A stretch of DNA of 64,000 bases from a virus, in the IMG/VR virus record IMGVR_UViG_3300018414_000007, positions 17,107 to 81,106 of that record. The stretch is one strand, 5' to 3'. A program made the translations under genes and the position numbers. This document shows, piece after piece, positions 7,785 through 28,152 of the stretch (within the stretch, counting starts at the first letter, position 1; each line of letters begins with the position of its first letter). The notes under the pieces are model-generated. The model had not been told where the DNA came from, ran no database searches, and saw only the letters and a program-made list of their open reading frames with translations.

Positions 7785-8161
7785 TATACTAGTCTACAAG
7801 GTATATCCAAATCTTCACTAAGGTAATAAGCAGCACATACTCTATGATATCCATCTGCAATAATTAAAGTATCATTAGAACCTCTTACTAACAGTACTGG
7901 TGATAACTTCTTACCTTTATTTACCTTCTTTATATTCTCTTTAACATGTTGATTAGAACTAGGTAGCAATTCTAGCTTACTAGCTCTTAGTATATCTTTA
8001 GCTTTCTTCTTTATAGTTCTAGTAGTCTTAAGATACTCAACAATTACATCTACAACTTCAGATTCTTTAATTAACTCTAAATAATCTGCAGCAGCAGGAT
8101 AATCATGTTCCTCTGGGTCTTTTAACCAAATACTTTTATTCCTTTTTAATTCCTTTGACAT
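7784..8161 (-). CDS. Stand-alone ParB/Srx-like domain protein
   Basis: LSPVLLVR...LIIADGYHRVCAA is the ParB/Srx GxHR motif. Confidence 0.75.
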   Translation of the reverse strand: MSKELKRNKSIWLKDPEEHDYPAAADYLELIKESEVVDVIVEYLKTTRTIKKKAKDILRASKLELLPSSNQHVKENIKKVNKGKKLSPVLLVRGSNDTLIIADGYHRVCAAYYLSEDLDIPCRLV

Positions 8162-8294
8162 CTAATAATCTTTTTAAAAAATCTATCAACATAGATCTTT
8201 CTATTTCCATTCTAGGAGATATATTACTATCACTAATAACAATATATTCTTTTTCTAGAATAACTTTATCATCTATACTTAATTTAATAATCAT
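8136..8294 (-). CDS. Hypothetical protein (likely start MIIKLSIDD)
   Basis: ATG at 8294. The tracked TTG start lies inside a structured leader. Confidence 0.45.
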   Translation of the reverse strand: MIIKLSIDDKVILEKEYIVISDSNISPRMEIERSMLIDFLKRLLDVKGIKKE

Positions 8295-8326
8295 AATATT
8301 AATAATAGAGAGGTTTCCCCATTTAT

Positions 8327-8450
8327 AGGACAACCTTGGCTTAACTAGTCTTAGAAGCAGTCATACCTCTCAAAACCCATAATGATTGGGGCATCTCTAT
8401 CAACCTTTTAGCCTTATTCCAATCCAACTAATCCTAGTTAAGTTGCTCTT
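8327..8450 (-). ncRNA. Candidate structured RNA or 5' leader
   Basis: 9-bp CTTAACTAG/CTAGTTAAG stem (8340-8348/8434-8442) enclosing GATTGG/CCAATC and an AGAGGTA-TGAC-TGCTTCT hairpin, right after a promoter. Confidence 0.45.
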
Positions 8451-8460
8451 TATATAAGTA

Positions 8461-8492
8461 CAAATGTAAGTAAAATAAATGACAATTCCAAA
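8461..8492 (-). promoter_or_regulatory. Bacteroidota primary-sigma promoter
   Basis: TTTG-N20-TACATTTG on the minus strand. Confidence 0.72.
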
Positions 8493-8493
8493 T

Positions 8494-8871
8494 TTATTTT
8501 ATTATATTTTTATTATATTCTAATAGAACTGTTTTATCTATTATATTAATCATCCAGTCTAATAACTCAAATGGTTCTACACATTCTTCTATAAATAAAA
8601 CTCTAGGCAGTATACCATTTAATCTATCTTCTTTCCACATTTTAATATGAAGATTAATACTACCCTTTGTTTTTAAAAGTGTTCTTAGTAAATTAGGATG
8701 TTTAGTAGGCTTTAACTTTCCTTGTGAATCAAATAAAAAGAAAGCCTTTTTACCATCTATTCCTTTAGTATCATACTCTATATCTCTATCTAATCTACCA
8801 TCAAAATCAAATGTGTGTCTAAACTTTAAATACCAATTAAAGTCTCTATTGAAGTTATCACTATACTTCAT
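8494..8871 (-). CDS. Hypothetical protein
   Basis: 125-aa ORF, first gene downstream of the promoter at 9000. Confidence 0.65.
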   Translation of the reverse strand: MKYSDNFNRDFNWYLKFRHTFDFDGRLDRDIEYDTKGIDGKKAFFLFDSQGKLKPTKHPNLLRTLLKTKGSINLHIKMWKEDRLNGILPRVLFIEECVEPFELLDWMINIIDKTVLLEYNKNIIK

Positions 8872-8999
8872 AAAAAATTTTAAAAATTTTAAAAAAATGT
8901 TTGTGGTTAATCTTTATATCTACCCTATTATCATTACCCCATCCTAACATTTGACCTGATTATACCGGGTTGTTTCTTATTAGGTGGAAGTGATTTCTG

Positions 9000-9031
9000 C
9001 AAATATAAGAATTCTTTTTTACAATTGCAAA
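9000..9031 (-). promoter_or_regulatory. Bacteroidota primary-sigma promoter at the strand switch
   Basis: TTTG-N20-TATATTTG on the minus strand. Confidence 0.72.
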
Positions 9032-9066
9032 TTAATCAATTAAATAATTACTCAAACATTAAACAC

Positions 9067-9384
9067 ATGAACAAGATTAAATCTTTATTTGTTTTCAACA
9101 AGGTTGATAACAATGGTAATGCAAGGACAGTTGCTTGCATCAATGGTGATACATTCATCAATGCTAAATGGTTAGCAAGTCAAACTGAATTAACTATTGC
9201 TTCATTACCACTATTGGTAGGTAGTAGCATAGAAGTTGAATACTTTGTTGAAGGTGAAGTATTGCAAGCTGCAGAAGGTGATATAGCTGAAAAGCTTTGC
9301 ACCAAGAATAATACTATAGTTAAAAGCTTTAGTGTTGAGTACAGCATTGCACTTACAGTTGCTAAAATGTATAAAGCTGCATAA
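9067..9384 (+). CDS. Early hypothetical protein (MNKIKSLF..., 105 aa)
   Basis: ATG at 9067 follows the recurrent AATTAATCAA...TTACTCAAAC leader. Confidence 0.7.
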   Translation: MNKIKSLFVFNKVDNNGNARTVACINGDTFINAKWLASQTELTIASLPLLVGSSIEVEYFVEGEVLQAAEGDIAEKLCTKNNTIVKSFSVEYSIALTVAKMYKAA

Positions 9385-9399
9385 TGATGCAATTAACAT

Positions 9400-9432
9400 T
9401 AGGAATAAGTGTCATAGTGATGCTTATTCCTA
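9400..9432 (+). other. 15-bp hairpin (processing or termination site)
   Basis: TAGGAATAAGTGTCA-TAG-TGATGCTTATTCCTA just after a stop codon. Confidence 0.55.
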
Positions 9433-9502
9433 TTATACTTGCAATCAAGGATGAGAGAAAAGACAAACAGTCTAAATGGTATAAAGAGAATAGATGATTA
9501 AA

Positions 9503-9610
9503 TAAACTAAAGGTAAGCATAAAGGTTAAAGTTAGCTCTGCACTAAAGTAGCTAATTAGGTATCTAACTGCTGGTATTCTCGATGAATACTATTGCTTAT
9601 CTTTAGTTTA
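9503..9610 (+). ncRNA. Stem-closed multibranch RNA candidate
   Basis: 17-bp TAAACTAAAGGTAAGCA/TGCTTATCTTTAGTTTA closing stem; internal TTAGCT/AGCTAA and TGGTATTC/GAATACTA hairpins. Confidence 0.5.
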
Positions 9611-9710
9611 ATATCTTATGTAAAAGAGTGTTAATTGAGTACTCTCTATCTCTCAGCACTATTTCTCACTAATCAACTTATCAGTTAACTTACACTAATT
9701 CATTATTATT

Positions 9711-10004
9711 ATGGCTAATCAAGAGTTTAATCCTTCTGAAAATAGTATAATATTACTATCAGTTTTAAAGTATATTACAGGTGAAGTTGTTCAAATAAAT
9801 AGAACAAATAGAACAATTTACCTTAGTAATAACACTCATTGGAATGCTCATACATTTCATCAAAACGTTCAATTATTAAGAATGTTTATGAATAGAGAAA
9901 TATCTATTGACCCAACTATACAATTAATGCAAAATGCAGTAAAGTCAACAATAGATGCTATGAAAAAGCAATGTCCAATGAAAGTTATATCTTTAATAAA
10001 ATAA
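9711..10004 (+). CDS. Hypothetical protein
   Basis: 97-aa ORF with ATG start. Confidence 0.6.
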   Translation: MANQEFNPSENSIILLSVLKYITGEVVQINRTNRTIYLSNNTHWNAHTFHQNVQLLRMFMNREISIDPTIQLMQNAVKSTIDAMKKQCPMKVISLIK

Positions 10005-10159
10005 ATATATTACTTCCTAATGGTAAATACAAAGGACAATCTGTTTCTTATGTATATTCAATTCATCCAAGCTATATTAAATGGTATTTTGACCATGTTA
10101 AAGAGCTTAATGAATTCATTGAATTGCAAAGAAAATACGACAGTAAACAAGGTGATTAA
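9971..10159 (+). CDS. Small protein with GKYKG motif (DUF3820/ExoX C-terminal-like)
   Basis: LPNGKYKGQSVSYV...PSYIKWY pattern. Confidence 0.55.
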   Translation: MSNESYIFNKINILLPNGKYKGQSVSYVYSIHPSYIKWYFDHVKELNEFIELQRKYDSKQGD

Positions 10160-10208
10160 TTTCGCCTTTAACTAATCATTTTATTAACCTATTTTAATTA
10201 TCAGCATT

Positions 10209-10400
10209 ATGTACCTTTTATTACTCCTAATAATACTATCAGTAATACTCTTTTACTTAGTATTTAAGACAAACAAGATTAAAAAGTCTTATCAATATAA
10301 TAATTATAAGATTGATAAGGCTAAGAATACACCTGTTTATACAAAGACTAAAGACCTTTGTAGAAGAGGAATGCATCATTCATTTAAGTTTAAATACTAA
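10209..10400 (+). CDS. Small membrane-anchored protein
   Basis: N-terminal hydrophobic helix followed by a basic tail. Confidence 0.5.
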   Translation: MYLLLLLIILSVILFYLVFKTNKIKKSYQYNNYKIDKAKNTPVYTKTKDLCRRGMHHSFKFKY

Positions 10401-10404
10401 ACTT

Positions 10405-10596
10405 ATGGCAAGACAAGAATTACATAAATGTTCTATATGTGGTAAAACATATGATATTCAAAAACATGAGTTTTGTCCTAAGTGTGGAGAAAATGAAAAA
10501 GAATGGAAAAAAACACATTCAATGCTTAGTAATTTGAGTAATAACTTCATTGATGAAATGGAGTCTTTTCATGGATTTCAAGAAGTATTTGATTAA
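10405..10596 (+). CDS. Zn-ribbon protein
   Basis: MARQELHKCSICGK...FCPKCG from ATG at 10405. Confidence 0.6.
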   Translation: MARQELHKCSICGKTYDIQKHEFCPKCGENEKEWKKTHSMLSNLSNNFIDEMESFHGFQEVFD

Positions 10597-10632
10597 AATA
10601 CTACAAAGAACTTTATAAATTACATTCAGATT

Positions 10633-10852
10633 TTTCAATTACTACTGGTAGTAAGTATAATTGAAATTAGAGAGAGTAGTTTATATTGAATAGGATTCTA
10701 AAGTTGATTATACAGTCTTAAGTAGACTTAGACTACAAACTTCTTGCCTATTATTTAAATGCATAACACGATAAAGAGGAATAATAAACTATCTAGTTAA
10801 TAACCAATTGCAACAGGTGAAAACTAAAAGGATGTGATAGCAGCCTCTTTAT
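10633..10852 (+). ncRNA. Three consecutive structured elements
   Basis: Hairpin 10633-10666; AATAGG/CCTATT-closed element 10689-10752; ATAAAGAGG/CCTCTTTAT-closed element 10771-10852 with nested CTATC/GATAG and TAGTT/AACTA helices. Confidence 0.45.
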
Positions 10853-10882
10853 TAAATTAAATTGAAATCAAATTAAATAACT

Positions 10883-11020
10883 ATGATACCTACAGTAATA
10901 CTTTTAATTATTCTATTTGCATTGTTAATCAATATCTGTACAAATACAGATTGGAAACAAGAGAATGAAGATTTAATAACTATTTGGAAATGGTTATTTA
11001 AATCAAAAATATTGAAATAG
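10883..11020 (+). CDS. Small membrane protein (45 aa)
   Basis: Read by hand: MIPTVILLIILFALLINIC..., with an A-rich leader. Confidence 0.5.
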   Translation: MIPTVILLIILFALLINICTNTDWKQENEDLITIWKWLFKSKILK

Positions 11021-11085
11021 TATAGATAACAATGCTTCTCAATTAGGCACGGTTAATTGAGTATACTATTTTAAAGAACTTCATT

Positions 11086-11267
11086 TAACTCTTCAAACTT
11101 GTACAAAGGAGTTATCTTATAGAAGCAGAGATTAGTTGCAAATAATCTTTGCAGTACAAGTGTGGTGCACATCATCAAAACGAGAAAGAAAAGATCATTT
11201 AAAAAAGACTATTATGTAGAAAACGGCATGAAGAGCCCTTAATAGTCGAAAACTTAGCTTGTGTGCA
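11086..11267 (+). ncRNA. Candidate pseudoknotted RNA
   Basis: Stem TAACTCTT/AGGAGTTA whose loop ACTTGTAC pairs with GTACAAGT (11154-11161); further stems 11125-11152, 11166-11267 and 11207-11247. Confidence 0.5.
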
Positions 11268-11313
11268 GAGCTATTTTATTAATTAATCAAACAAATTACT
11301 CAAACTTAAAACT

Positions 11314-11451
11314 ATGCAAATAGAAATCTTTAACCATATTAGTCTAGGACAGGTATGGAATGTGAAACAGCGTGGAACTAAAATGTATTGTAGAACTGTT
11401 TCAGATAATATACAATACAAAATTAATCTAATTGATTTAATTGATTACTAA
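11314..11451 (+). CDS. Small hypothetical protein (45 aa)
   Basis: Read by hand: MQIEIFNHISLGQVW..., after the conserved AATTAATCAA leader. Confidence 0.55.
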   Translation: MQIEIFNHISLGQVWNVKQRGTKMYCRTVSDNIQYKINLIDLIDY

Positions 11452-11452
11452 T

Positions 11453-11671
11453 ATGTGGTATTTTGTTTTAATATGTATAGTAATATTTCAAGGATATATT
11501 ATTTATAAACAATACAGAATAATTCAGTTAGATAATAAATTACATGAATTAGCGGATCAATGTGCTGAATTAGCAGAATTATTCAGACCAAAAGATAACT
11601 CATTACCAATAAAATCAACAGGATATTATAAAACTGATGAAAATGGTAAATTAATATTTGTTGAACATTAA
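11453..11671 (+). CDS. Small membrane-anchored protein
   Basis: MWYFVLICIVIFQGYII N-terminal transmembrane segment. Confidence 0.55.
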   Translation: MWYFVLICIVIFQGYIIYKQYRIIQLDNKLHELADQCAELAELFRPKDNSLPIKSTGYYKTDENGKLIFVEH

Positions 11672-11676
11672 AATAT

Positions 11677-11755
11677 TAAGGGTAATAGCATCGTTCTTTT
11701 CCATTTTGCGTTTTTGTGAACTTTTATTTAACATCTAAAAAGTCTATTACCCTTA
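11677..11755 (+). ncRNA. Stem-closed small RNA candidate
   Basis: Perfect 12-bp TAAGGGTAATAG/CTATTACCCTTA stem enclosing a pyrimidine-rich loop. Confidence 0.45.
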
Positions 11756-11771
11756 TTTAAAACTTAAAATT

Positions 11772-11957
11772 ATGGTATCAATAACAGTATTAACAATAGG
11801 ATTTTTATTCTTTCTATCCTATATATATTTAATGACAACTCCTACACCAAGAAAACATTGTGATAGATGTGGTAGAGAGTTAAAAGAAAGACATTATGGA
11901 AATATCTATTATTGGATATGTCCTATTCATGGTATAAAAGAAACTAAAGTTAAATAA
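11772..11957 (+). CDS. Membrane-anchored Zn-ribbon protein
   Basis: Transmembrane helix followed by CDRC...CPIH. Confidence 0.55.
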   Translation: MVSITVLTIGFLFFLSYIYLMTTPTPRKHCDRCGRELKERHYGNIYYWICPIHGIKETKVK

Positions 11958-11958
11958 T

Positions 11959-12150
11959 ATGAAATGGTTTAAAGCAATAACAACAATTTTAATACTTATA
12001 TGTATTATGGTTGGAATCAATTGGTTTGTTATATCCATTAATAGTATTAAGCGAGGTATCAATAAACCAAGAATTGATACAGTATTAACTATAAGAACTA
12101 TTAGACATTATAGAGATACTGATACAGTAATATTAAAACATTTAAATTAA
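11959..12150 (+). CDS. Small membrane protein
   Basis: N-terminal transmembrane helix; operon packing. Confidence 0.5.
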   Translation: MKWFKAITTILILICIMVGINWFVISINSIKRGINKPRIDTVLTIRTIRHYRDTDTVILKHLN

Positions 12151-12155
12151 ATTTA

Positions 12156-12359
12156 ATGGCATCAAAACAAGAACAATTAGAATTAGACTTTCTAAAAGTG
12201 AAAGTTAGAATTGTAAGAGATATTACTGATTGTTCTACATTTGAACAATTAGATGAATATATTCATAATGTAAACAAAATATTTGATATAACCTCATTCT
12301 TAGACAAAAATAAAGCGAGTCATAAAGAGATTGGTAATGTTGAAATATTAGAAGAATAG
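12156..12359 (+). CDS. Hypothetical protein
   Basis: 67-aa ORF. Confidence 0.55.
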   Translation: MASKQEQLELDFLKVKVRIVRDITDCSTFEQLDEYIHNVNKIFDITSFLDKNKASHKEIGNVEILEE

Positions 12360-12392
12360 TAAAGATCCAGGGAAATACTGTATGGAAACAGT

Positions 12393-12480
12393 ATAATAGT
12401 AGGTGAAGGTTTCACCTTAAATGAAGTTATCTTGAAGAGACTAACGACTCTTTAAAGAGAATTAATCAGCCTACTATTAT
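12393..12480 (+). ncRNA. Stem-closed multibranch RNA candidate
   Basis: ATAATAGTAGG/CCTACTATTAT 11-bp closing stem enclosing three small hairpins. Confidence 0.45.
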
Positions 12481-12520
12481 TATTTTAATTAATCAAATTT
12501 ACTACTCTAAACAATAAACT

Positions 12521-12718
12521 ATGACAGATGAAATAGTACAATCAAATGTAAGAGCATATAATGTAGTCCAACAAGGATATAGTGATGATGCTTTAAAGGT
12601 AAGAGAGTCATTAGGTAAAGACTTTACTGATATTCTATTTAGGAAGTTGTGTACTTTATCTAAATTAGAAAGAATTGAAGTAATAACTAGTCTTTCTAAA
12701 GTTATTAACAAAATTTAA
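12521..12718 (+). CDS. Hypothetical protein
   Basis: 65-aa ORF preceded by the conserved leader. Confidence 0.6.
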   Translation: MTDEIVQSNVRAYNVVQQGYSDDALKVRESLGKDFTDILFRKLCTLSKLERIEVITSLSKVINKI

Positions 12719-12728
12719 CCAATTTATT

Positions 12729-12902
12729 ATGAAATATAAATATTTTATATATAATATAAATGGTACTTTATTATATGAATCAATGTGCTCATATAAAGAA
12801 CCATTAGCATTAAAATTAGCTGAAAAGCATTGTTTAATATCACAATTAAATGGTAATAAAGGTGCATATAGCAAATTAATGCCAGAAGGAATTGCAGTTT
12901 AG
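12729..12902 (+). CDS. Hypothetical protein (57 aa)
   Basis: Read by hand: MKYKYFIYNINGTLLYES...GIAV*. Confidence 0.5.
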   Translation: MKYKYFIYNINGTLLYESMCSYKEPLALKLAEKHCLISQLNGNKGAYSKLMPEGIAV

Positions 12903-12934
12903 TTAGGAGTAATTACTGTAATTTGATTAGTTTT

Positions 12935-13029
12935 TAATATAGTGGGAGACAGTGGTGCAAAGCCATTCTTGCCAAGGTTGAAACCCAGTCTTGGTTAGTA
13001 GTATAACAGTTATTACGCCTACTATATTA
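12935..13029 (+). ncRNA. Circularly permuted, anticodon-less tRNA-like RNA
   Basis: Order: anticodon-stem 3' strand, variable loop AGAC, T-arm AGTGG-TGCAAAG-CCATT, acceptor 3' CTTGCCA, linker hairpin, acceptor 5' TGGTTAG, TA, D-arm GTAT-AACAGTTA-TTAC, G, anticodon-stem 5' strand. Confidence 0.7.
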
Positions 13030-13193
13030 TTTTATTTAGCTTACCTAACAATAATTATTATGAAACCAGAAAATTTTGCGATAGTGAATGGTGTAATAGT
13101 TTCAGATGAAGATGCAATCATTTGGGATTTTCAATAAATAGGATATAAGTATATATCCTGCATTTGTAAGCGTATTGGATGTATAAAATATCC

Positions 13194-13349
13194 CCTAAGA
13201 TGATGGAACATAAACAGAACTATACGTATTCCCCAAGAATATAGTCCTTCTGTTAGGCAAACATGAGCATTTAGATTTAATGCTTGGGAACTATAGGAAA
13301 ATCTCGACGATATAACTATCCCTTGAAGGTTCGTACCCTTCTCTTAGGA
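13194..13349 (+). tRNA. Expanded (156 nt) tRNA-Leu-like gene with inserts in D-loop, anticodon loop and variable arm
   Basis: Acceptor CCTAAGA/TCTTAGG plus A73; T-arm GAAGG-TTCGTAC-CCTTC; D-stem ATG/CAT with GGC; anticodon stem AGCAT/ATGCT; variable stem GGGA/TCCC. Confidence 0.7.
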
Positions 13350-13423
13350 CTATTCTATATGATAGGATATAGAGTATGAAGTTAACACAAATTATCTACA
13401 AACAAATTTAAATTTAAAACAAA

Positions 13424-13954
13424 ATGAATAAAAGATTTTTAACAGGCTTTGCTATGATGCATTTAGCCGCTGATGCTGCTTCTCAAGGTGGAAATAGCAA
13501 TGAATTAACTAAAGAACAAGTTAAACAAATCATTGAATCTCGTAAAATTGTTACAGAACCTGGTCAATATCAGGCTAAAGTAACTAATGTTACTCTTTAT
13601 ACAAGAGAAGATGATACATTAGTACAAATCAATAACTTTGATTTGATGACTCCTTGGAATCTATCTGAAGCAAAGCGTTTGTATAAAGAAGGAGAGTATA
13701 CTGAAGCTGCAAGCCAAAAGCTCTCTAACAATTCAAGAGTAGGTACTGATTTCTGCCCTAAGAAAGGAGATATTGTAAATGTTGTATTAGATATAATTGC
13801 TACTAAGAATCAACCAAATGGTGTTCTTTTGATTAAAGCAATTATGCCTCTTGAAACAAAGAAAGCATCTGCTGTATCTTTTGGTTTTGATGATGAAACT
13901 GAAGAAGTTAATTTAGCAACTGAAAAAGCAGTTGAAGAACCAGCATTAACTTAA
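13424..13954 (+). CDS. Hypothetical protein (acidic C-terminus)
   Basis: 176-aa ORF with a strong A-rich initiation region, followed by a hairpin. Confidence 0.7.
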   Translation: MNKRFLTGFAMMHLAADAASQGGNSNELTKEQVKQIIESRKIVTEPGQYQAKVTNVTLYTREDDTLVQINNFDLMTPWNLSEAKRLYKEGEYTEAASQKLSNNSRVGTDFCPKKGDIVNVVLDIIATKNQPNGVLLIKAIMPLETKKASAVSFGFDDETEEVNLATEKAVEEPALT

Positions 13955-13966
13955 TTGTAAACCTAA

Positions 13967-13994
13967 TAGTAGTAGAGCCTATCCTCTACTACTA
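13967..13994 (+). terminator. 11-bp hairpin after the gene
   Basis: TAGTAGTAGAG-CCTATC-CTCTACTACTA; weak U-tract. Confidence 0.45.
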
Positions 13995-14009
13995 ATTTAA
14001 ATTAAAACT

Positions 14010-14192
14010 ATGAAATCAAAAGCATTTGGAATAACATTTTTAATATTGTTATTCTTGTTACATCTCATACCACTTATTATATATATTATATCAAGAAATA
14101 TCAATACTCTTAGTATGTATGCTGGTCTTTTAGTACTTGATATAATTATAATAACAATTTGCGATATGAATGGTTTATTTACTGATTATTAA
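14010..14192 (+). CDS. Small membrane protein (2 TM)
   Basis: Two hydrophobic segments. Confidence 0.55.
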   Translation: MKSKAFGITFLILLFLLHLIPLIIYIISRNINTLSMYAGLLVLDIIIITICDMNGLFTDY

Positions 14193-14203
14193 CCTTAATT
14201 AAT

Positions 14204-14680
14204 ATGAAATTAAAACAAAAATCTTGGTATGCTTGGTATTATCAGAACTTTTATGGTGAAGATTTACCAGTATCTTTATGTGTATTCTTTTGGAAAGAAT
14301 TACTAGCAATAATACTATTTCCTATTACATGGCTTAATGTTATATTTAATTACAAAAAACAAGACTACGATAGACTTCCTATTGGATTAACTATTGCATT
14401 ACATTGTGTAGGAATAGGAGTTGGGTTATTAATTACAATTCCATTACATCTTAAAAATCCAATACATTTACTTTGGGTAGGTATTCCCGGTTTAATTTTA
14501 TTAGCAATATTAATTGGTATCGTAGTAGGAGTAGGTTTTGTATTATATCAATTAGTTGGATTTATATCTAGATTATTTTATAAATATAAACCTGCTTATA
14601 AAGAACCTAAACCCAGTTGGTTTAAAGAAGGTATAAAAGCATTCTTTGGTAAATATTGTCCTAAAATAGATTGGTTATGA
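14204..14680 (+). CDS. Membrane protein (about 3 TM)
   Basis: SWYAWYY...LPVSLCVFFWK, hydrophobic helices, C-terminal KYCPKIDW. Confidence 0.7.
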   Translation: MKLKQKSWYAWYYQNFYGEDLPVSLCVFFWKELLAIILFPITWLNVIFNYKKQDYDRLPIGLTIALHCVGIGVGLLITIPLHLKNPIHLLWVGIPGLILLAILIGIVVGVGFVLYQLVGFISRLFYKYKPAYKEPKPSWFKEGIKAFFGKYCPKIDWL

Positions 14681-14832
14681 TTTATAGACTTATTATAATA
14701 CTTTCAGTATTATTCTTTGCTATGCACAATAAAATAACTATTGGAGAATTTTATATTATCTGGTGTATATTATTAGTAGATCTAATAAAAATAATGATGA
14801 ATATGGAAATAATGATTATTTCTATTAAATAA
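14677..14832 (+). CDS. Small membrane protein (51 aa)
   Basis: Read by hand; ATGA overlap with the upstream stop. Confidence 0.45.
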   Translation: MIYRLIIILSVLFFAMHNKITIGEFYIIWCILLVDLIKIMMNMEIMIISIK

Positions 14833-14837
14833 GGTAA

Positions 14838-14909
14838 GGTCCTGTAGTTCAACGGATAGAACGGGAGATTTCTAATCTCTAGATAATGGTTCGATTCCAT
14901 TCAGGACTA
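14838..14909 (+). tRNA. tRNA-Arg(TCT)
   Basis: Canonical cloverleaf GGTCCTG-TA-GTTC AACGGATA GAAC-G-GGAGA TT TCT AA TCTCT-AGAT-AATGG TTCGATT CCATT-CAGGACT-A. Confidence 0.95.
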
Positions 14910-14930
14910 CAATTAATCAAATTAAATAAT

Positions 14931-15164
14931 ATAAAAATAGAATTAGAACAAACAACAAACAATACTGTACCAATTAAAATATCAGTTACAATAGAAACTC
15001 AAGAAGAATTTGATAGTATATCTAATTTTACAGGATGTGTTATTGTAAATGATTTAATAGATACTATTGAAAGACCTGCTGTAAAACAATTTTTATCAGT
15101 AAAGTCAAGAAAAACTATTATTGCAAACTTTTTACAAGGATTTTGGAAAAAACTAGTGTTATGA
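14931..15164 (+). CDS. Hypothetical protein, probable ATA start
   Basis: The tracked ATG (14886) lies in the tRNA T-arm. The in-frame ATA at 14931 follows the AATTAATCAA leader. Confidence 0.45.
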   Translation: MKIELEQTTNNTVPIKISVTIETQEEFDSISNFTGCVIVNDLIDTIERPAVKQFLSVKSRKTIIANFLQGFWKKLVL

Positions 15165-15997
15165 AAAAGTATAAATTAATTAAAGAATATCCGGGTTCAC
15201 CTAAACTGGGAACTATAGTAGAACATGAAACTAAATGTGTATGTCCTAATTATAAAGTTAGTATAAATCAAGAAACTTGGATATTTGCAGAATCTAGTAT
15301 ACAGAATTTCCCTGAATTTTGGAAAGAGATAATAGGAAAAGAATATGAAATATTATCTTTTAAAATTAATGAGGATATATATAGTCATGTAATTATACTA
15401 AATAAAACTCGAAAAGGATTTATGAATACATTAAACGGTTTATATTTATATGAAGAACAACTATTAACCAATAATGACTATAAAATATATTCAGTAAAAC
15501 GTTTATCAGATGGAGAAGTGTTTACTATTGGTGATGGTATTAAATCTACTGAATGGTCTAAAAAAGATGATCAAGATATAATTACAAATATATGCATTTG
15601 TACTGAAGATCATAGTAAAGTATTTGGAAATTTAAAACCAAATAAAATAATTTTACAAACAGAAATAACTTGGCAATGTAATTTAGAATCTGCAATTAAA
15701 GTTAAAAAACCATTATTTACTACAGAAGATGGAGTAGATATATTTGAAGGTGACACATTTAGTATAGTTTATTCTGATTTTTCTACTCATTACAATGTAA
15801 CCTTTAAAAATCTTATTAAACCATTTTGTAAGGTATTTTCAACAAAAGAAAAAGCAGAAGAATATATTTTATTAAATAAACCTGTTTTAACTTATAATGA
15901 TATCATTAATATTACTCAATTTATAACAGCAGTAGAAAGAGCGTGTGTATTAATTCAAACTGAAAAATTACTAAAACAAAAACTTAATATTAAATAA
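15161..15997 (+). CDS. Hypothetical protein (MKKYKLIKEYPGSP...)
   Basis: ATG at 15161 overlaps the upstream stop; contains SVKRLSDGEVFTIGD and LFTTEDGVDIFEGD segments. Confidence 0.7.
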   Translation: MKKYKLIKEYPGSPKLGTIVEHETKCVCPNYKVSINQETWIFAESSIQNFPEFWKEIIGKEYEILSFKINEDIYSHVIILNKTRKGFMNTLNGLYLYEEQLLTNNDYKIYSVKRLSDGEVFTIGDGIKSTEWSKKDDQDIITNICICTEDHSKVFGNLKPNKIILQTEITWQCNLESAIKVKKPLFTTEDGVDIFEGDTFSIVYSDFSTHYNVTFKNLIKPFCKVFSTKEKAEEYILLNKPVLTYNDIINITQFITAVERACVLIQTEKLLKQKLNIK

Positions 15998-15998
15998 C

Positions 15999-16376
15999 AT
16001 GAATGCAACAATAACAACTGGAATAATTTTATTAGCTACATTAATAGCTATTAATTTAACTTGTATAATAATCAATCATTTTGTAATTAAAGCGGAAATA
16101 AATGATATATTAGACAAGGATTTAAGAATAGATTTACTTCAATCTCTTCAACCTATTTATAAAATATTCTTTAAAAGGGTAATAATCTCAGCAAATACAG
16201 ATTATTTTAGTTGTAAAGAAGATTATATAAGATATTCAAGTTATTTAAATATTGAAGGATTGCAAGAAGATTTAAATAATTTTTATCATAAATCCAGAAG
16301 AAAAGAACATACAGATTATGAGTTATTTAATGAATTTAAAGAAAAGAAAGTTTTAGAAGTAGAAGAAATGTTTTGA
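15999..16376 (+). CDS. Membrane-anchored hypothetical protein
   Basis: N-terminal transmembrane segment. Confidence 0.6.
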   Translation: MNATITTGIILLATLIAINLTCIIINHFVIKAEINDILDKDLRIDLLQSLQPIYKIFFKRVIISANTDYFSCKEDYIRYSSYLNIEGLQEDLNNFYHKSRRKEHTDYELFNEFKEKKVLEVEEMF

Positions 16377-16403
16377 TTTTTCAATTATTTTATCGTATTT
16401 TTG
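16372..16403 (+). promoter_or_regulatory. Bacteroidota primary-sigma promoter
   Basis: TTTG-N20-TATTTTTG. Confidence 0.7.
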
Positions 16404-16423
16404 TATAATATTCCAATTATTTA

Positions 16424-16852
16424 ATGTATGAAATTAAAGACTTTACTAATCTCTTTACCTCTACTAAGCTATCTGAACTATTAATATTAGCAATTCTAGT
16501 ATTTTTAGGTGTTGCTGCAAGAATTAGTATAGATATTGAGATTAGTAAAAAGTCTTTTAAACAGATTAAATTTTTTCCTAGATATTTCTTAGCATTAGTA
16601 TTATCTTATGTTATTGAATTATATTTAGTGGAACATGAAGATGCAAGAAAATATTACGCAGAAATTATAATATTATTTTGTATCTTTGTAAATGATCTTA
16701 TTAAGTTTGTACTTAATAACACTGGTAGAATATTTATTTATATTTTAAGTGCCTTTACTAAAGGTGTATTTGATTTAAAGAAGTTTCTTGCTAAATCTGA
16801 GAATAATGGAAACAAACCAATAAATAAAGAATTTGATAATAAAGAAGAATAA
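16424..16852 (+). CDS. Membrane protein (holin-like topology)
   Basis: 3-4 hydrophobic segments and a charged C-terminal tail. Confidence 0.6.
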   Translation: MYEIKDFTNLFTSTKLSELLILAILVFLGVAARISIDIEISKKSFKQIKFFPRYFLALVLSYVIELYLVEHEDARKYYAEIIILFCIFVNDLIKFVLNNTGRIFIYILSAFTKGVFDLKKFLAKSENNGNKPINKEFDNKEE

Positions 16853-17298
16853 TGTATTATGCAGGACAATTAATTGATATTTCTCTATGGTCTTGGTTAC
16901 TTCTTATAATGATTAAGAGAGTAATATGTAGAGGCTTTGATATAAGATTAAATACAATAGTAACAGCTTTTAAACAACATAGCTTTATATCTATTACAAG
17001 AGAAAAACTTCACAATCTAATCAAGAATCATCATTACTATAGTGAAATATTAATATTAATTGCATCAGCATTAATGGTAATAAGTATAAGTAACGACTTA
17101 TATTTATACAGTCATAATCTTATAGATAAGATACAAACACTAGATATATTTAAACAATTAGTATTTAGTAAACTTATTAGTATAGGATTAATTTTTAAGT
17201 TTAGACGATCTCAGCCTAAACTATTCAGTAACATAAAGGAGGAAATCAAAGATGCATACAATAAAATTGTTTCTCCCTTTTCAGAAGCAGTTCATTGA
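16852..17298 (+). CDS. Membrane protein
   Basis: Three hydrophobic segments; coupled to the previous gene. Confidence 0.6.
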   Translation: MYYAGQLIDISLWSWLLLIMIKRVICRGFDIRLNTIVTAFKQHSFISITREKLHNLIKNHHYYSEILILIASALMVISISNDLYLYSHNLIDKIQTLDIFKQLVFSKLISIGLIFKFRRSQPKLFSNIKEEIKDAYNKIVSPFSEAVH

Positions 17299-17404
17299 CC
17301 TTGGAGAAGGTAAAGATTTAGAAGCAACTGCAATACAATCACAGAAAAAACTTTTAGAACAAAATATATTATCTTGGATAATATACATACGTAATGAGGA
17401 TTAA
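17252..17404 (+). CDS. Small hypothetical protein (50 aa)
   Basis: Read by hand: MHTIKLFLPFQKQFIDLGEG..., preceded by AAAGGAGG. Confidence 0.4.
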   Translation: MHTIKLFLPFQKQFIDLGEGKDLEATAIQSQKKLLEQNILSWIIYIRNED

Positions 17405-17418
17405 TAGTCCTCTTTTTT
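17396..17418 (+). terminator. Intrinsic terminator
   Basis: GAGGATT-AAT-AGTCCTC followed by T6. Confidence 0.7.
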
Positions 17419-17429
17419 ATTTTATATAT

Positions 17430-17564
17430 ATGAGTAAATCAAGTAGAAAAAGAAAAGCACAGAGGAGATTAGACTCTAAGATGGGTAATTATGATAAATT
17501 TGGAGGTAAGTCTCCTTATAGTGGTCATAAATTAAATAAACCAGGAAGTAAACAAATTAAATAG
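17430..17564 (+). CDS. Small very basic protein (44 aa)
   Basis: Read by hand: MSKSSRKRKAQRRLDSKMGNYDKFGGKSPYSGHKLNKPGSKQIK*. Ends 2 nt before the next ATG. Confidence 0.6.
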   Translation: MSKSSRKRKAQRRLDSKMGNYDKFGGKSPYSGHKLNKPGSKQIK

Positions 17565-17566
17565 AA

Positions 17567-18091
17567 ATGGGATCAACAATTTTAAATAATATAACAGACA
17601 CACCTTATTATATAAATTGGTTAAAAGATCAAGATTTTGTACAAAATTTCCATAAAACAATTATAAATCAAAATACATACCAATCACAAATAAATAATAC
17701 TATGGCAAAAGCAGTAAAAGAAGAAGGAGAACCCGCTCCTTCAGAAGAAAATAAAGGTAAAAAATGTTTTAGAGATTTAAAAATAGGTGATGAATATTAC
17801 CAAACAATACCTACTACTGGTATGTTATCAGTTATTAAAGTAACTTCTTTAGTTAAGTATGATGATAAAAGAGTTGTAGTTAATGGTAGTCATACAGTTA
17901 ATTTTGAGAATACACTACACAACGCAACTACTTTTATAGTATATTTAGATAAAGATGAAGCTGAATTTTCTATTATAGAAGGTTTAGAAAAGAAATTAGA
18001 ACAAGAGGTAAAAGATCTTGTGATAAGAGAACAATCTTTAAAAGAAAAAACTCAAAGACTTGAAGAATTAAAAAATAAATTTAAAAAATAA
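17567..18091 (+). CDS. Hypothetical protein with C-terminal coiled coil
   Basis: 174-aa ORF; an internal start (MAKAVKE) is also possible. Confidence 0.65.
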   Translation: MGSTILNNITDTPYYINWLKDQDFVQNFHKTIINQNTYQSQINNTMAKAVKEEGEPAPSEENKGKKCFRDLKIGDEYYQTIPTTGMLSVIKVTSLVKYDDKRVVVNGSHTVNFENTLHNATTFIVYLDKDEAEFSIIEGLEKKLEQEVKDLVIREQSLKEKTQRLEELKNKFKK

Positions 18092-18114
18092 AAACAAATA
18101 AAACTTTCATTAAC

Positions 18115-18438
18115 ATGGAAAAAAATAATAACTCTATATTCTTCTTCTATCCAGATGCAGAAGAAGGTCAACCAAGAAAAGTAATTGCTGGAGTATTTAA
18201 CTCTAATACTAATACTCTTATAATTGCTAAATCAGAATGTTCTCCTAAAGACAACTTCTGTAAAGATAAAGGTAGGAAGATTGCATTAGGTAGAGCCTTA
18301 TGTAATAGAGAAATTAAAGTTAAAGAGTATAAAGGTAAACAATCTAAAACAAATAAAAATTTGTTACCAAGAATCTTTAACTTAGAATCTGCTGAAAAAC
18401 CACAACAAAAATTCATTCAAATAGCAAAATCACTTTAA
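18115..18438 (+). CDS. Hypothetical phage protein
   Basis: Contains a CSPKDNFCKDKGRKIALGRA motif of the type common in small phage proteins. Confidence 0.7.
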   Translation: MEKNNNSIFFFYPDAEEGQPRKVIAGVFNSNTNTLIIAKSECSPKDNFCKDKGRKIALGRALCNREIKVKEYKGKQSKTNKNLLPRIFNLESAEKPQQKFIQIAKSL

Positions 18439-18439
18439 C

Positions 18440-19159
18440 ATGGCTAGGCTACAAGATATAGAAAAAATAATAGATAACTACGAAGAGAAGTTAAGAAAAG
18501 AAAAGCCTTTAAAAGCGTATAGTCATAGTAACAATTCTCTTGAATTAGAATCTGTACCTTATAATAAAACAGATTTAAAAAGCTTTATCATAGACTTCTT
18601 TAAAGACAATCATGGATACAATCCTAAACCTTGTTTTGCTAGAACTATTCAAACTAGAGAAGGGAAAGAAGAAACAACTAGTAGAGGACAAAGAAGAACT
18701 GCTGGAGATATATTCAGGTTTGCATTAAGATATTATTCTGATGATATTACTTTATATGATGTTATGGAAATATTATATGATTTAGTACAAAATGAATATA
18801 AATTTCAGACTCCTAACAGTAATAGTGATTATGCTACTCTTTATATGAATATTTGTAGTACTATTTATAGAAGGGTATTTAATTTATCACCTGGTTATAA
18901 AGGAAAATATAAATTTGATTCTAGTAATCAATATTATACTGATACTAGCACTAGTTCTATTAGAAATGAATTTCATATATTTGGATCTGATTACACTTTA
19001 CTTTTTGATACTAAAGAAGGTAAGGAATTAGTTTCAAGTAAACGTAATGAAATTGTTATTCCTGCTAATATGACTAGTGAAGAGCTAGATAGGTTAGTTA
19101 TGGAAAAACTAAAAAAATTGAAATCTCCAATAAAATTGGATAAAGTAGGTTATTTCTAA
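18440..19159 (+). CDS. Hypothetical protein
   Basis: 239-aa ORF. Confidence 0.7.
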   Translation: MARLQDIEKIIDNYEEKLRKEKPLKAYSHSNNSLELESVPYNKTDLKSFIIDFFKDNHGYNPKPCFARTIQTREGKEETTSRGQRRTAGDIFRFALRYYSDDITLYDVMEILYDLVQNEYKFQTPNSNSDYATLYMNICSTIYRRVFNLSPGYKGKYKFDSSNQYYTDTSTSSIRNEFHIFGSDYTLLFDTKEGKELVSSKRNEIVIPANMTSEELDRLVMEKLKKLKSPIKLDKVGYF

Positions 19160-19160
19160 A

Positions 19161-19195
19161 CTATCTCCTCCAATAAAGCGTTAAAAAGGAGGTAG
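19161..19195 (+). promoter_or_regulatory. Hairpin sequestering the polA Shine-Dalgarno
   Basis: CTATCTCCT (19161-19169) pairs with AGGAGGTAG (19187-19195). Confidence 0.6.
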
Positions 19196-23570: not shown

Positions 23571-24383
23571 ATGAATAAACATAAAAATTTTAAAGTATTT
23601 GTAGTAGGATTTAATACTGGCTACGCTAGGTGGATACAAGGTGAACTTGCTAAAAATATGAAAGAGGCTGATGTTGTTCTGTTTACAGGGGGAGAAGATA
23701 TTTCTCCCTCTTTATACGGAGAAACAGCTGGAAGACATACATTTCCCTATGATAGACCAAATGGTCAATTACCTTTAAGAGATGAATTTGAGGTAAGGAA
23801 TTATAAAGAAGCGTTAGAGTTAGGTAAACCTATGTGGGGTACTTGTAGAGGTGCTCAATTGTTATGTGCTTTAGCTGGTGGTAAATTAGTACAGGATATG
23901 AGTCATCATAGTTCTCATAAATTGTATTTCTATGATAATGAGTATGAGTGTGTAAGTAATACTTTACATCACCAAATGCAATATCCTTACACTATGAAAG
24001 ATGGTGAAGACTATAAAATCTTAGCTCATGCTATAGGTCAGAGCCCTTACTTCTTAGATGGTAATGATAAACCTCTTATTATGCCTGAAACAGTGAAAAA
24101 ACAAGGATATGCTAAACCTCTTATTAAAGAACCAGAGTTTGTATATTATCCTAAAATTAAATCTTTAGGTATACAAGGACATCCTGAAATGATGTCTACT
24201 AATAGTGATATGGTTTTAGTATGTCATGCATTTTTAAATCTTTTGATAGAGGATAAGTTAAATGATGCTCTCCTTTTAAATATTCCTGTTAAATCTATTA
24301 TAAGTAGAGCTTGGGATTTTAATTTTACAAAAGAAGAAAATGCATTATTAAATCAAATTAAAGAAGTCCCTATCGAGGTATAA
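23571..24383 (+). CDS. Class I glutamine amidotransferase / peptidase C26
   Basis: FTGGEDISP, GTCRGAQLL (nucleophile Cys), NTLHHQ and GIQGHPE (His-Glu). Confidence 0.9.
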   Translation: MNKHKNFKVFVVGFNTGYARWIQGELAKNMKEADVVLFTGGEDISPSLYGETAGRHTFPYDRPNGQLPLRDEFEVRNYKEALELGKPMWGTCRGAQLLCALAGGKLVQDMSHHSSHKLYFYDNEYECVSNTLHHQMQYPYTMKDGEDYKILAHAIGQSPYFLDGNDKPLIMPETVKKQGYAKPLIKEPEFVYYPKIKSLGIQGHPEMMSTNSDMVLVCHAFLNLLIEDKLNDALLLNIPVKSIISRAWDFNFTKEENALLNQIKEVPIEV

Positions 24384-24384
24384 A

Positions 24385-25014: not shown

Positions 25015-25029
25015 ATTAAATATATATAA

Positions 25030-25869: not shown

Positions 25870-25880
25870 TTAAAGAAACT

Positions 25881-25951
25881 TAAGAGTAGTGATAGCCTTG
25901 AGTTCGCTTTAGTTACTAATTTATTGGTAGCCTCCGGCTATCCTACTTTTA
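25881..25951 (+). ncRNA. Structured element upstream of the GATase start
   Basis: TAAGAGTAG-T-GATAGCC/GGCTATC-CTACTTTTA closing stem; inner GTTACTAA/TTGGTAGC hairpin. Confidence 0.5.
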
Positions 25952-25968
25952 AATTAAATAAAACAAAT

Positions 25969-26000
25969 ATGTGTGGATTAATATTTTGATGTGTGGATTA
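25969..26000 (+). repeat. Duplicated GATase start ATGTGTGGATTA (MCGL) x2
   Basis: Exact 12-bp direct repeat at 25969 and 25989, giving mini-ORFs MCGLIF* and MCGLYSLSLY*. Confidence 0.85.
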
Positions 26001-26015
26001 TATTCACTATCTTTG
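25985..26015 (+). promoter_or_regulatory. Bacteroidota promoter for the HNH gene
   Basis: TTTG-N19-TATCTTTG, ending 5 nt before ATG 26021. Confidence 0.65.
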
Positions 26016-26020
26016 TATTA

Positions 26021-28142: not shown

Positions 28143-28152
28143 AGAATATATA

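What the first reader, a model, noticed from the sequence alone, without database searches (positions are those of the whole stretch)
13194..13349. 156-nt giant tRNA-Leu-like RNA with three insertions
Seen: perfect acceptor stem CCTAAGA/TCTTAGG, A73, T-arm GAAGG-TTCGTAC-CCTTC, and a Leu-type D region (ATG-GAA...GGC-AAA-CAT, A15:U48). About 45 nt are inserted in the D-loop and fold on themselves (AACAGAA/TTCTGTT enclosing CTATA/TATAG). The anticodon stem AGCAT/ATGCT closes a 9-nt loop TTAGATTTA, and the variable stem GGGA/TCCC encloses 29 nt. The D-insert loop CCCAAG is complementary to CTTGGG at the variable-arm base, and GAACTATA occurs in both inserts, so alternative folds are possible. Known: bacterial LeuRS relies on A73 and the elbow rather than the anticodon. 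Inference: a chargeable but probably non-decoding RNA, or a tRNA with non-canonical introns. It lies 165 nt from the permuted element, suggesting a tRNA-mimic locus.
Basis: partly seen in the sequence, partly recalled or inferred. Interest (0 to 1): 0.85.

Follow-up and report, generated by a model that had tools for sequence, protein, structure and literature searches.

The report
Oversized leucine-tRNA-shaped phage RNA gene
An uncultured freshwater phage carries a 156-base gene that looks like a leucine tRNA enlarged by extra hairpins, probably a non-decoding tRNA look-alike of a kind seen in phages such as T5 but never explained.

Summary
The minimum-energy fold is the proposed four-way cloverleaf. 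ARAGORN and Rfam do not call it as it stands.

A T-arm next to a 7-bp closing stem is expected by chance about 1.2 times per window. The interior, however, is tRNA-like beyond chance. After the inserts were deleted in silico, 1834 of 4200 variants were called tRNA; 0 of 1084 interior shuffles reached that number. The skeleton is most like leucine tRNAs: the top 4 of 43 phage tRNAs compared are Leu.

I found no homologue anywhere, and no RNA run holds the stretch. Conservation and expression are therefore untested.

There is no support for introns. No bulge-helix-bulge sits at an insert border, and the phage encodes no splicing enzymes.

Best reading: a tRNA-Leu(UAG)-derived, oversized, probably non-decoding tRNA-shaped RNA. 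Its design matches phage T5 RNA1, annotated "tRNA-like stable RNA with unknown functions".

Earlier notes of this scan describe similar Leu-type shells on other phage DNA. I rate it a new variant of a known but unexplained kind, of moderate interest.

The parts
13194..13200 (+). acceptor stem, 5' strand (CCUAAGA)
   Evidence: Pairs 7 of 7 Watson-Crick with 13342-13348; pair probabilities 0.85-1.0.
13201..13209 (+). U8-G9, D-stem 5' strand AUG, then G13-A14-A15-C16 (leucine-type D region)
   Evidence: The same UG + 3-bp stem + GAA pattern is present in T5 RNA1, the T5 and T4 tRNA-Leu, and L039a/b (alignment A3).
13210..13255 (+). about 45-nt hairpin inserted in the D loop between C16 and G18 (outer stem AACAGAA/UUCUGUU, inner stem, loop CCCAA)
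   Evidence: outer stem 0.70-0.99. Not repeated elsewhere in the 81-kb genome.
13256..13265 (+). G18-G19-CAAA, D-stem 3' strand CAU, G26
   Evidence: D-stem pair probabilities 0.58-0.63.
13266..13284 (+). anticodon-type arm: AGCAU/AUGCU closing UUAGAUUUA. It contains UU-UAG-AU followed by four extra bases, so the triplet is out of register.
   Evidence: stem 0.97-1.0. Compared with the T5 tRNA-Leu(UAG) loop.
13286..13322 (+). 37-nt variable arm (GGGA/UCCC with two inner short helices)
   Evidence: 0.74-0.95.
13325..13341 (+). T-arm GAAGG-UUCGUAC-CCUUC. G53-C61 is kept; U stands where A58 is expected.
   Evidence: probabilities 0.72-0.88. T5 RNA1 has the same T-stem letters.
13342..13349 (+). 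acceptor 3' strand UCUUAGG and discriminator A73; no encoded CCA
   Evidence: The phage's ordinary tRNA-Arg also lacks an encoded CCA.
13177..13193 (+). 6-bp hairpin that abuts the 5' end of the element (context; not shown to belong to it)
   Evidence: Centroid fold of 13135-13425.
13351..13376 (+). 10-bp hairpin that starts 2 nt after A73, with no U tract (context; not shown to belong to it)
   Evidence: Fold of 13135-13425. The scan found no + strand terminator here.

Best explanation
The stretch is a phage gene for an oversized tRNA-shaped RNA that descends from a leucine tRNA, most likely the UAG isoacceptor.

It keeps the parts that tRNA-handling enzymes read: a 7-bp acceptor helix stacked on a 5-bp T-arm, U8, A14, G18-G19, G53-C61, a leucine-type D region and A73.

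It has grown at the three places where the tRNA fold tolerates extra length:
- a 45-nt hairpin in the D loop after C16;
- four extra bases in the anticodon loop, which push the UAG triplet out of register;
- a 37-nt variable arm.

Proposed working (all inferred, none shown). It is transcribed on the + strand with the early genes. Host RNase P and 3' processing cut it out and CCA is added. It then persists as a stable tRNA-like RNA that does not decode normally. It acts through its tRNA shell, by occupying a host protein that reads the acceptor/elbow of tRNA-Leu (LeuRS is the obvious candidate), while the hairpins serve as handles or cargo. Its excision would also cut the early transcript between two small genes.

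What is shown: the sequence, the fold, the tRNA-Leu resemblance, and the parallel with phage T5 RNA1.
For: The fold is the MFE and the centroid, and it stays an independent domain in context.

The interior is tRNA-like beyond chance: 1834 of 4200 insert-deleted variants were called by ARAGORN, and 0 of 1084 interior shuffles reached that. In the wider grid 12,951 of 35,784 variants were called.

The skeleton is most like Leu tRNAs. The top 4 of 43 distinct phage tRNAs are Leu, with scores of 17 and 15 against 6 or less for all others.

All 20 core pairs (7 acceptor, 3 D, 5 anticodon, 5 T) are Watson-Crick.

It lies in an intergenic gap on the strand of the neighbouring genes, 1.5 kb from the phage's only ordinary tRNA, which also lacks an encoded CCA.

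The design is matched by T5 RNA1, annotated 'tRNA-like stable RNA with unknown functions': UG, a 3-bp D stem, GAAUUGGUAGA, a long anticodon arm, a variable hairpin and a T-stem GAAGG/CCUUC.

Distant relatives of this phage carry other oversized tRNA-shaped genes that Rfam's tRNA model scores at 40-51 bits despite 23-57 extra bases in the anticodon region.
Against: No homologue exists in any collection searched, not even in a complete relative with 70% identical terminase. Nothing therefore shows conservation or covariation.

ARAGORN and Rfam do not call the native sequence, even at E up to 10.

The skeleton only just passes ARAGORN: it fails at a 110% threshold.

The T-loop has U in place of the nearly invariant A58. 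The first pair is C1-G72. The D stem is only 3 bp with A10-U25.

The fold z-score is modest (-1.80), and the minus strand folds about as well (-36.2 kcal/mol, z = -1.46).

T-arm plus acceptor alone is expected 1.23 times per window by chance.

The early region is full of other stem-closed structured elements, so a closing stem is not special here.

The deletion grid used in the control was fitted to the real hairpins.
Confidence: 0.5

Rival explanations
1. It is a decaying tRNA-Leu pseudogene. A former decoding tRNA picked up insertions and point changes (A58U, an anticodon-loop expansion) and is now junk in a long intergenic gap.
For: It is a singleton absent from the closest complete relative. 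It has U58 and a displaced anticodon. Its ARAGORN score after insert removal is marginal. Rfam is silent.
Against: All 20 core pairs and the insert stems are intact Watson-Crick helices. Random decay in a 38% G+C sequence should already have broken some of them. All the extra length sits at fold-tolerant sites and forms self-contained hairpins. The inserts are not copies of any repeat in the genome. Note one bias: an insert inside a stem would have made the element unrecognisable, so intact stems are partly a condition of finding it.
Confidence: 0.2
2. It is still a working tRNA-Leu. Either the enlarged RNA decodes CUN as it is, or the extra segments are removed as introns to give a tRNA of about 85 nt.
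For: The UU-UAG-AU string and A73. Lak megaphages are reported to have tRNAs with 'enigmatic introns' (Devoto et al. 2019, PMC6784885; passages read). Relatives L006, L008 and L011 have a normal-looking 7-nt loop string directly 5' of a 16- to 80-nt insert.
Against: Loose bulge-helix-bulge motifs number 4 against 2.68 expected in shuffles, and none lies at an insert border. The phage has no RtcB, no tRNA splicing endonuclease and no CCA enzyme, and the 40 proteins scanned include no RNA ligase. The inserts are far too small for group I introns, and Rfam finds no ribozyme. A 4-nt 'intron' fits no known splicing route. A 45-nt hairpin at the elbow and U58 argue against normal ribosomal use (inference).
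Confidence: 0.12
3. It is one more of the stem-closed structured elements of the early region (for example RNase III-type processing or regulatory hairpins), and its resemblance to a tRNA is coincidental.
For: At least seven neighbouring intergenic elements fold strongly behind long closing stems (z from -2.5 to -6.0). T-arm plus acceptor is expected about once per window by chance. 170 of 1084 interior shuffles give at least one ARAGORN call.
Against: 0 of 1084 shuffles reach the real count. The leucine-specific resemblance puts Leu tRNAs in the top 4 of 43. The closing stem is exactly 7 bp, stacked directly on a 5-bp stem with a UUCG-type loop, whereas the neighbouring elements have 9- to 17-bp closing stems.
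Confidence: 0.1

Closest known systems
Phage T5 RNA1 (AY543070.1 30501-30644, misc_RNA 'tRNA-like stable RNA with unknown functions'), and T5 RNA2 (32959-33083)
   Same: An oversized RNA (144 nt as annotated) in a phage tRNA region, with an acceptor helix stacked on a T-arm. It has U8-G9, a 3-bp D stem, a leucine-type D loop, a long variable hairpin and no usable anticodon loop. The T-stem letters GAAGG/CCUUC are even the same.
   Different: T5 RNA1 carries its extra length in the anticodon arm and has a normal D loop and a UUCAACU T-loop. The window element keeps a short anticodon-type arm and puts the extra length in the D loop and the variable arm, and it has U58. There is no sequence homology beyond the shell; my model R1 was not run on T5. 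T5 RNA1 is annotated as a stable RNA; this one has no expression data.
Phage T4 rnaC (species 1 RNA, 139 nt) and rnaD (species 2 RNA) at the end of the T4 tRNA cluster (AF158101.6 70908-71171)
   Same: Small stable phage RNAs of unknown function encoded next to tRNA genes. rnaC ends in a T-arm (CCGGG-UUCGAAU-CCCGG) closed by a terminal helix.
   Different: rnaC has no leucine-type D region in the fold, and its body is one long helix. rnaD shows no T-arm.
'Intron'-containing tRNAs of Lak megaphages (Devoto et al. 2019, PMC6784885)
   Same: Phage tRNA genes longer than expected because of inserted sequence, with no known removal mechanism ('enigmatic introns'; passages read).
   Different: Those genes were re-predicted with eukaryote settings to name an intron and its excision points (methods passage). 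Here the large inserts are in the D loop and the variable arm, and only 4 nt are in the anticodon loop.
Class II bacterial and phage tRNA-Leu
   Same: U8-G9, a 3-bp D stem, G13-A14-A15, G18-G19, A21, a long variable arm, A73 and no dependence on the anticodon for LeuRS (this last point is recalled knowledge, not tested). The skeleton scores highest against Leu tRNAs.
   Different: It is 156 nt against 85-87 nt. It is not detected by ARAGORN or Rfam. It has U58, a 9- to 11-nt anticodon loop and a C1-G72 first pair.
YrlA-type Y RNAs with a tRNA-like module, bound by Ro60/Rsr (Rfam RF02553)
   Same: Bacterial and phage RNAs that mimic tRNA elbows (recalled, and named in an earlier scan note).
   Different: The phage has no TROVE/Ro60 gene (0 matches; the control hit 2 of 14 genomes). 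Rfam gives no match. Here the RNA ends form an acceptor stem, not a Ro-binding stem.

Membership tests
Canonical tRNA (Rfam RF00005 / ARAGORN) | Detected by the tRNA covariance model or by ARAGORN at default thresholds | tested here: not met
   Only tRNA-Arg at 14838-14910 is called in the window and in the whole genome. There is no tRNA match on the element at E up to 10.
Canonical tRNA (Rfam RF00005 / ARAGORN) | 7-bp acceptor, 5-bp T stem with a U54-U55-C56-R57-A58 loop, G53-C61, U8, A14, G18-G19 | tested here: inconclusive
   All are present except A58, which is U. After in-silico removal of the inserts, 1834 of 4200 variants are called tRNA, but none at a 110% threshold.
Canonical tRNA (Rfam RF00005 / ARAGORN) | 7-nt anticodon loop with U33 and a purine at position 37 flanking the triplet | tested here: not met
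   The loop is 9 nt (UUAGAUUUA) on the 5-bp stem, or UAGAUUU on the extended stem. UU-UAG-AU is in register only if 4 nt are ignored.
Phage oversized leucine-type tRNA-shaped RNAs (type example: T5 RNA1) | Acceptor/T-arm minihelix plus a leucine-type D region (U8-G9, 3-bp stem, GAA...GG..A) | tested here: met
   The skeleton ranks Leu tRNAs as the top 4 of 43.
Phage oversized leucine-type tRNA-shaped RNAs (type example: T5 RNA1) | Extra structured sequence that rules out normal decoding | tested here: met
   There is a 45-nt D-loop hairpin, a 37-nt variable arm and a displaced triplet. The sites differ from those in T5 RNA1.
Phage oversized leucine-type tRNA-shaped RNAs (type example: T5 RNA1) | Accumulates as a stable, end-processed RNA | not testable with these tools
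   Only one DNA run holds the stretch, and no RNA holder is listed.
Phage oversized leucine-type tRNA-shaped RNAs (type example: T5 RNA1) | Sequence homology to, or recurrence in, other phages | tested here: not met
   Model R1 finds only itself in 475,575 bases of relatives and nothing in G006-G008. Pattern scans of three collections found no homologue.
Intron-containing tRNA (archaeal/eukaryal type) | Bulge-helix-bulge at the exon-intron borders, with a splicing endonuclease and a ligase available | tested here: not met
   There are 4 loose BHB matches against 2.68 in shuffles, none at an insert border. tRNA_int_endo and RtcB are absent from the phage. Host enzymes are unknown.
tmRNA | G3-U70 in the acceptor, a tag reading frame, detection by ARAGORN or RF00023 | tested here: not met
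   Acceptor pair 3-70 is U-A. There is no tmRNA call in the window, although relatives do encode tmRNAs.
YrlA / Y RNA | A partner Ro60 (TROVE) gene and an RF02553 match | tested here: not met

The most novel reading that the evidence does not exclude
Phages may use the leucine-tRNA shell as a general chassis whose three length-tolerant pockets (D-loop alpha region, anticodon loop, variable arm) can each carry structured RNA cargo. This element would be the first case with cargo in the D loop and the variable arm while the anticodon arm stays small. It would be matured by RNase P, charged by LeuRS without ever decoding, and would act by occupying or redirecting a host tRNA-Leu-binding protein early in infection.
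Probability: 0.25. Interest if true: 0.7.

Novelty: new variant of a known kind. Interest (0 to 1): 0.45.

Why it matters
Stable tRNA-like RNAs of unknown function are annotated in phage T5 and T4 records and remain unexplained there. This element, the oversized tRNA genes I found in distant relatives, and the earlier notes of this scan together suggest that leucine-tRNA-shaped, non-decoding RNAs are a recurrent phage invention.

A case where the extra sequence sits in the D loop and the variable arm, not in the anticodon arm, would show which parts of the shell must stay constant. That would narrow the search for the host partner: an enzyme that reads the acceptor helix, the elbow and A73.

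It also shows that standard tRNA finders miss such genes entirely.

Tried and rejected
Homologue searches, all blank.
- blastn of 12900-13420 and megablast of 8000-20000 against 50,697 phage records.
- The neighbouring 176-aa protein in viral contigs and in 5.8 billion proteins, where it matched only itself.
- The 284-aa downstream protein: best non-self hit 44% identical, from 1813 hits.
- Model R1 on 38 relatives' loci plus the window, on 4 terminase-anchored loci (one noise hit at E = 2.6) and on 3 whole records.
- Exact and gapped patterns in viral, genome and metagenome collections. The single hit, L049, is G+C-rich and not tRNA-like when read.

Sequencing runs: one DNA holder (a freshwater metagenome, possibly the source) and no RNA holder listed.

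A 192-nt T-arm/acceptor candidate in the closest complete relative (G006 66611-66802) was rejected: z = -0.53, and 58 of 200 shuffles fold as well.

ARAGORN with relaxed thresholds on the native region gave only scattered weak calls. One was a complementary-strand 'tRNA-Tyr with a 77-nt intron' across the element at an 80% threshold. I do not rely on it.

attP-remnant idea (the 3' part of a host tRNA): no bacterial or archaeal genome holds the 21-mer T-arm/acceptor string, and no integrase was seen among the 40 proteins scanned.

Mobile-hairpin idea: the inserts have no second copy in the genome. The best non-self matches are 12 nt at E = 0.57.

Alternative fold CCCAAG:CUUGGG and the GAACTATA duplication: chance level.

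A second covariance model of leucine shells (alignments A2 and A3) was not built. A 45-nt D-loop insertion would be penalised out of any score, so the test could not be informative.

Promoter and terminator scan: 9 promoter-like sites against 9.2 expected, and no + strand terminator near the element.

Literature searches and passages read in PMC7886860, PMC10690425 and PMC6784885 found no description of tRNA-shaped RNAs with D-loop hairpin inserts.

Full report
WHERE IT LIES. The window is bases 17107-81106 of an 81,106-base virus record rated 90% complete. It is a tailed phage. It has a large terminase, a family A DNA polymerase, ribonucleotide reductase, dUTPase, primase, a RecT-like protein, a flap endonuclease, a cluster of glutamine amidotransferase, COOH-NH2 ligase, GGACT and amidoligase genes, and a 5005-aa ORF. 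Long ORFs are open under table 11. The only run that holds the DNA is a freshwater metagenome.

The element lies in a 520-nt gap between small + strand ORFs (12729-12902 and 13424-13954). It is 165 nt after another structured element and 1.5 kb before the phage's only ordinary tRNA, tRNA-Arg(UCU) at 14838-14910.

THE OBSERVATION. RNAfold returns the proposed cloverleaf as MFE and centroid (-35.6 kcal/mol, z = -1.80). It keeps that fold as an independent domain within 291 nt of context (z = -2.80). All core helices have high probability. A 6-bp hairpin abuts the 5' end, and a 10-bp hairpin starts 2 nt after the discriminator.

Neither ARAGORN nor Rfam reports anything here, even at E up to 10.

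IS IT CHANCE?
- My own scan asked for a TTCR T-loop on a 5-bp stem directly followed by a strand that pairs 7 of 7 with a stretch 66-260 nt upstream. It finds this element, the tRNA-Arg and one weak minus-strand site. The same pattern turns up 1.23 times per shuffled window. The 'perfect acceptor plus T-arm' is therefore not evidence on its own.
- The interior is. I deleted the D-loop hairpin, the inner variable arm and 0-4 nt of the anticodon loop over a grid of borders. ARAGORN then called a full-length tRNA in 12,951 of 35,784 variants and in 1834 of 4200 on a thinner grid.
- With acceptor and T-arm fixed and the interior dinucleotide-shuffled, 0 of 1084 shuffles reached 1834. 170 of 1084 gave any call, and the maximum was 1126.
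- Two cautions apply. The grid was placed on the real hairpins. The skeleton is also only just a tRNA by ARAGORN's scale: 768 calls at a 105% threshold and none at 110%.

WHAT KIND OF tRNA? The 5' part reads U8-G9, a 3-bp D stem, G13-A14-A15-C16, then the insert, then G18-G19-C-A-A-A and G26. That is the class II leucine pattern. It is also present in the T5 and T4 tRNA-Leu, in T5 RNA1 and in two elements of a distant relative (alignment A3).

The anticodon region holds UU-UAG-AU followed by UUAA. T5 tRNA-Leu(UAG) has CU-UAG-AU. The discriminator is A.

I compared an 84-nt skeleton, made by slicing inside a script, with 43 distinct ARAGORN-called tRNAs from all loci held. The top four were all Leu, with scores of 17, 15, 6 and 5; three others tied at 5. 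The set holds six Leu-labelled genes by my count.

Departures from a working tRNA:
- U in place of A58;
- C1-G72 as the first pair;
- A10-U25 in the D stem;
- an anticodon loop of 9 nt on the 5-bp stem, or UAGAUUU on the 7-bp stem the fold prefers. In either case U33 and purine 37 do not flank the triplet.

NO RELATIVES OF THE ELEMENT. The phage is isolated. The adjacent protein matches only itself among 5.8 billion proteins. The next conserved protein is at most 44% identical to anything else.

Terminase finds three contigs at 70-71% identity. Neither their 10-kb flanks nor two whole 94- to 98-kb records contain a match to a covariance model of the element. The one T-arm/acceptor candidate in the complete relative does not fold. 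Pattern scans of viral, genome and metagenome collections gave nothing usable. No RNA run holds the stretch.

Conservation, covariation and expression, the three tests that would settle function, could therefore not be made.

WHAT THE WIDER CLADE SHOWS. I examined 38 loci anchored on the 284-aa protein, at 29-48% identity. The same scan found oversized tRNA-shaped genes on the gene strand:
- L006 (89 nt), L002 (94 nt), L011 (121 nt) and L039b (108 nt) score 40-51 bits on Rfam's tRNA model although 23-57 bases replace the 7-nt anticodon loop or the whole arm.
- L008 has a 152-nt example with a perfect 5' half that Rfam misses.
- In L006, L008 and L011 a normal-looking loop string (AUAAGGA, AUCAAAU, AUCUAAU) sits directly 5' of the insert.
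- L039 has two adjacent elements with the leucine-type D arm.

Several of these phages also encode tmRNA. Enlarged tRNA-derived genes are thus common in this group, but the window element is not homologous to any of them.

INTRONS? Lak megaphages were reported to have tRNAs with 'enigmatic introns' (Devoto et al. 2019, PMC6784885; passages read). For the window element I find no support:
- loose bulge-helix-bulge motifs are no more frequent than in shuffles, and none lies at an insert border;
- the phage has no RtcB, splicing endonuclease, CCA enzyme or Ro60 gene in six-frame searches whose controls worked;
- Rfam finds no ribozyme;
- one of the three 'inserts' is only 4 nt.

CLOSEST KNOWN. 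GenBank AY543070.1 annotates rna1 (30501-30644) and rna2 as 'tRNA-like stable RNA with unknown functions' inside the T5 tRNA region.

RNA1 folds with an acceptor helix, U8-G9, a 3-bp D stem, GAAUUGGUAGA, G26, a 59-nt anticodon arm, a 21-nt variable hairpin and the T-arm GAAGG-UUCAACU-CCUUC. T4 rnaC and rnaD are annotated as small stable RNAs after the T4 tRNA-Arg, and rnaC ends in a T-arm.

The window element shares the design of T5 RNA1 but places its extra length differently.

HOW IT MOST LIKELY WORKS (inferred). The intact acceptor/T minihelix and elbow nucleotides are what RNase P, 3' processing and the CCA enzyme read. The leucine-type D region and A73 are what bacterial LeuRS reads, without using the anticodon (recalled knowledge). 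So the RNA would be cut out of the early transcript, CCA-tailed and possibly leucylated, yet unable to decode normally. I propose that it acts by occupying a host tRNA-Leu-binding protein, with the hairpins as handles. I put this at about 0.5.

The rivals are a decaying pseudogene (0.2), a still-decoding or spliced tRNA-Leu (0.12) and a generic structured element with a chance resemblance (0.1).

VERDICT. It is a new variant of a known but unexplained kind. Earlier notes of this scan describe comparable leucine-type shells in other phages, so the class is not unique to this DNA. Interest is moderate (0.45), limited by its singleton status and the lack of expression data.

Noticed in passing
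window 12935-13029 (+): A 95-nt element closed by a 12-bp stem folds as a four-way junction with three hairpins (-31.2 kcal/mol, z = -4.31, 0 of 200 shuffles). ARAGORN and Rfam see no tRNA in it; the only match is a chance-level TLS-PK6 hit at E = 2.5.
   Followed up: partly
window 9503-9610, 10771-10852, 11015-11071, 11677-11755, 12393-12480, 25881-25951 (+): Intergenic elements of the early region, closed by 9- to 17-bp stems, fold far better than shuffles (z from -2.5 to -6.0). Two other listed elements (10689-10752 and 11166-11267) do not (z = -1.0 and -0.9). They may be processing sites between the small early genes.
   Followed up: partly
L006:2423-2511, L002:1413-1506, L011:1895-2015, L039:363-470, L008:3217-3368: Distant relatives carry tRNA genes with 23-85 extra bases in the anticodon region. 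Four of them still score 40-51 bits on RF00005. L011 reads AU-CUA-AU before its insert, which would be an amber-suppressor anticodon.
   Followed up: partly
L002:3140-3540, L006:3807-4200, L008:2595-3041, G006:69491-69861: Phage-encoded tmRNA genes in relatives of this phage (ARAGORN and RF00023 at 58-81 bits). There is none in the window.
   Followed up: no
L015:3875-3946, L012:3673-3748, L007:4878-4950: L015 is 80% identical over 65 nt to the ARAGORN-called tRNA-Pro(UGG) of L007, but has C at position 33 and U at position 37 by my reading. L012 is similar, with A at position 33. ARAGORN calls neither.
   Followed up: partly
L002:1507-1540 and L006:2512-2545: Two related phages have the same sequence directly downstream of their oversized tRNA-like genes, but the genes themselves and the upstream flanks differ. 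It looks as if a cassette had been exchanged.
   Followed up: no
L008:503-552 (+): A weak match to the type-P1 twister ribozyme (43.6 bits; the gathering score is 67.2; E = 2e-06).
   Followed up: no
window 23571-31397 (+): A run of genes for Peptidase_C26/GATase, a GGACT cyclotransferase, a phiEco32-like COOH-NH2 ligase, a class II amidotransferase-like protein and an amidoligase.
   Followed up: no
window 46941-61958 (-): A single 5005-aa ORF. It was not analysed.
   Followed up: no
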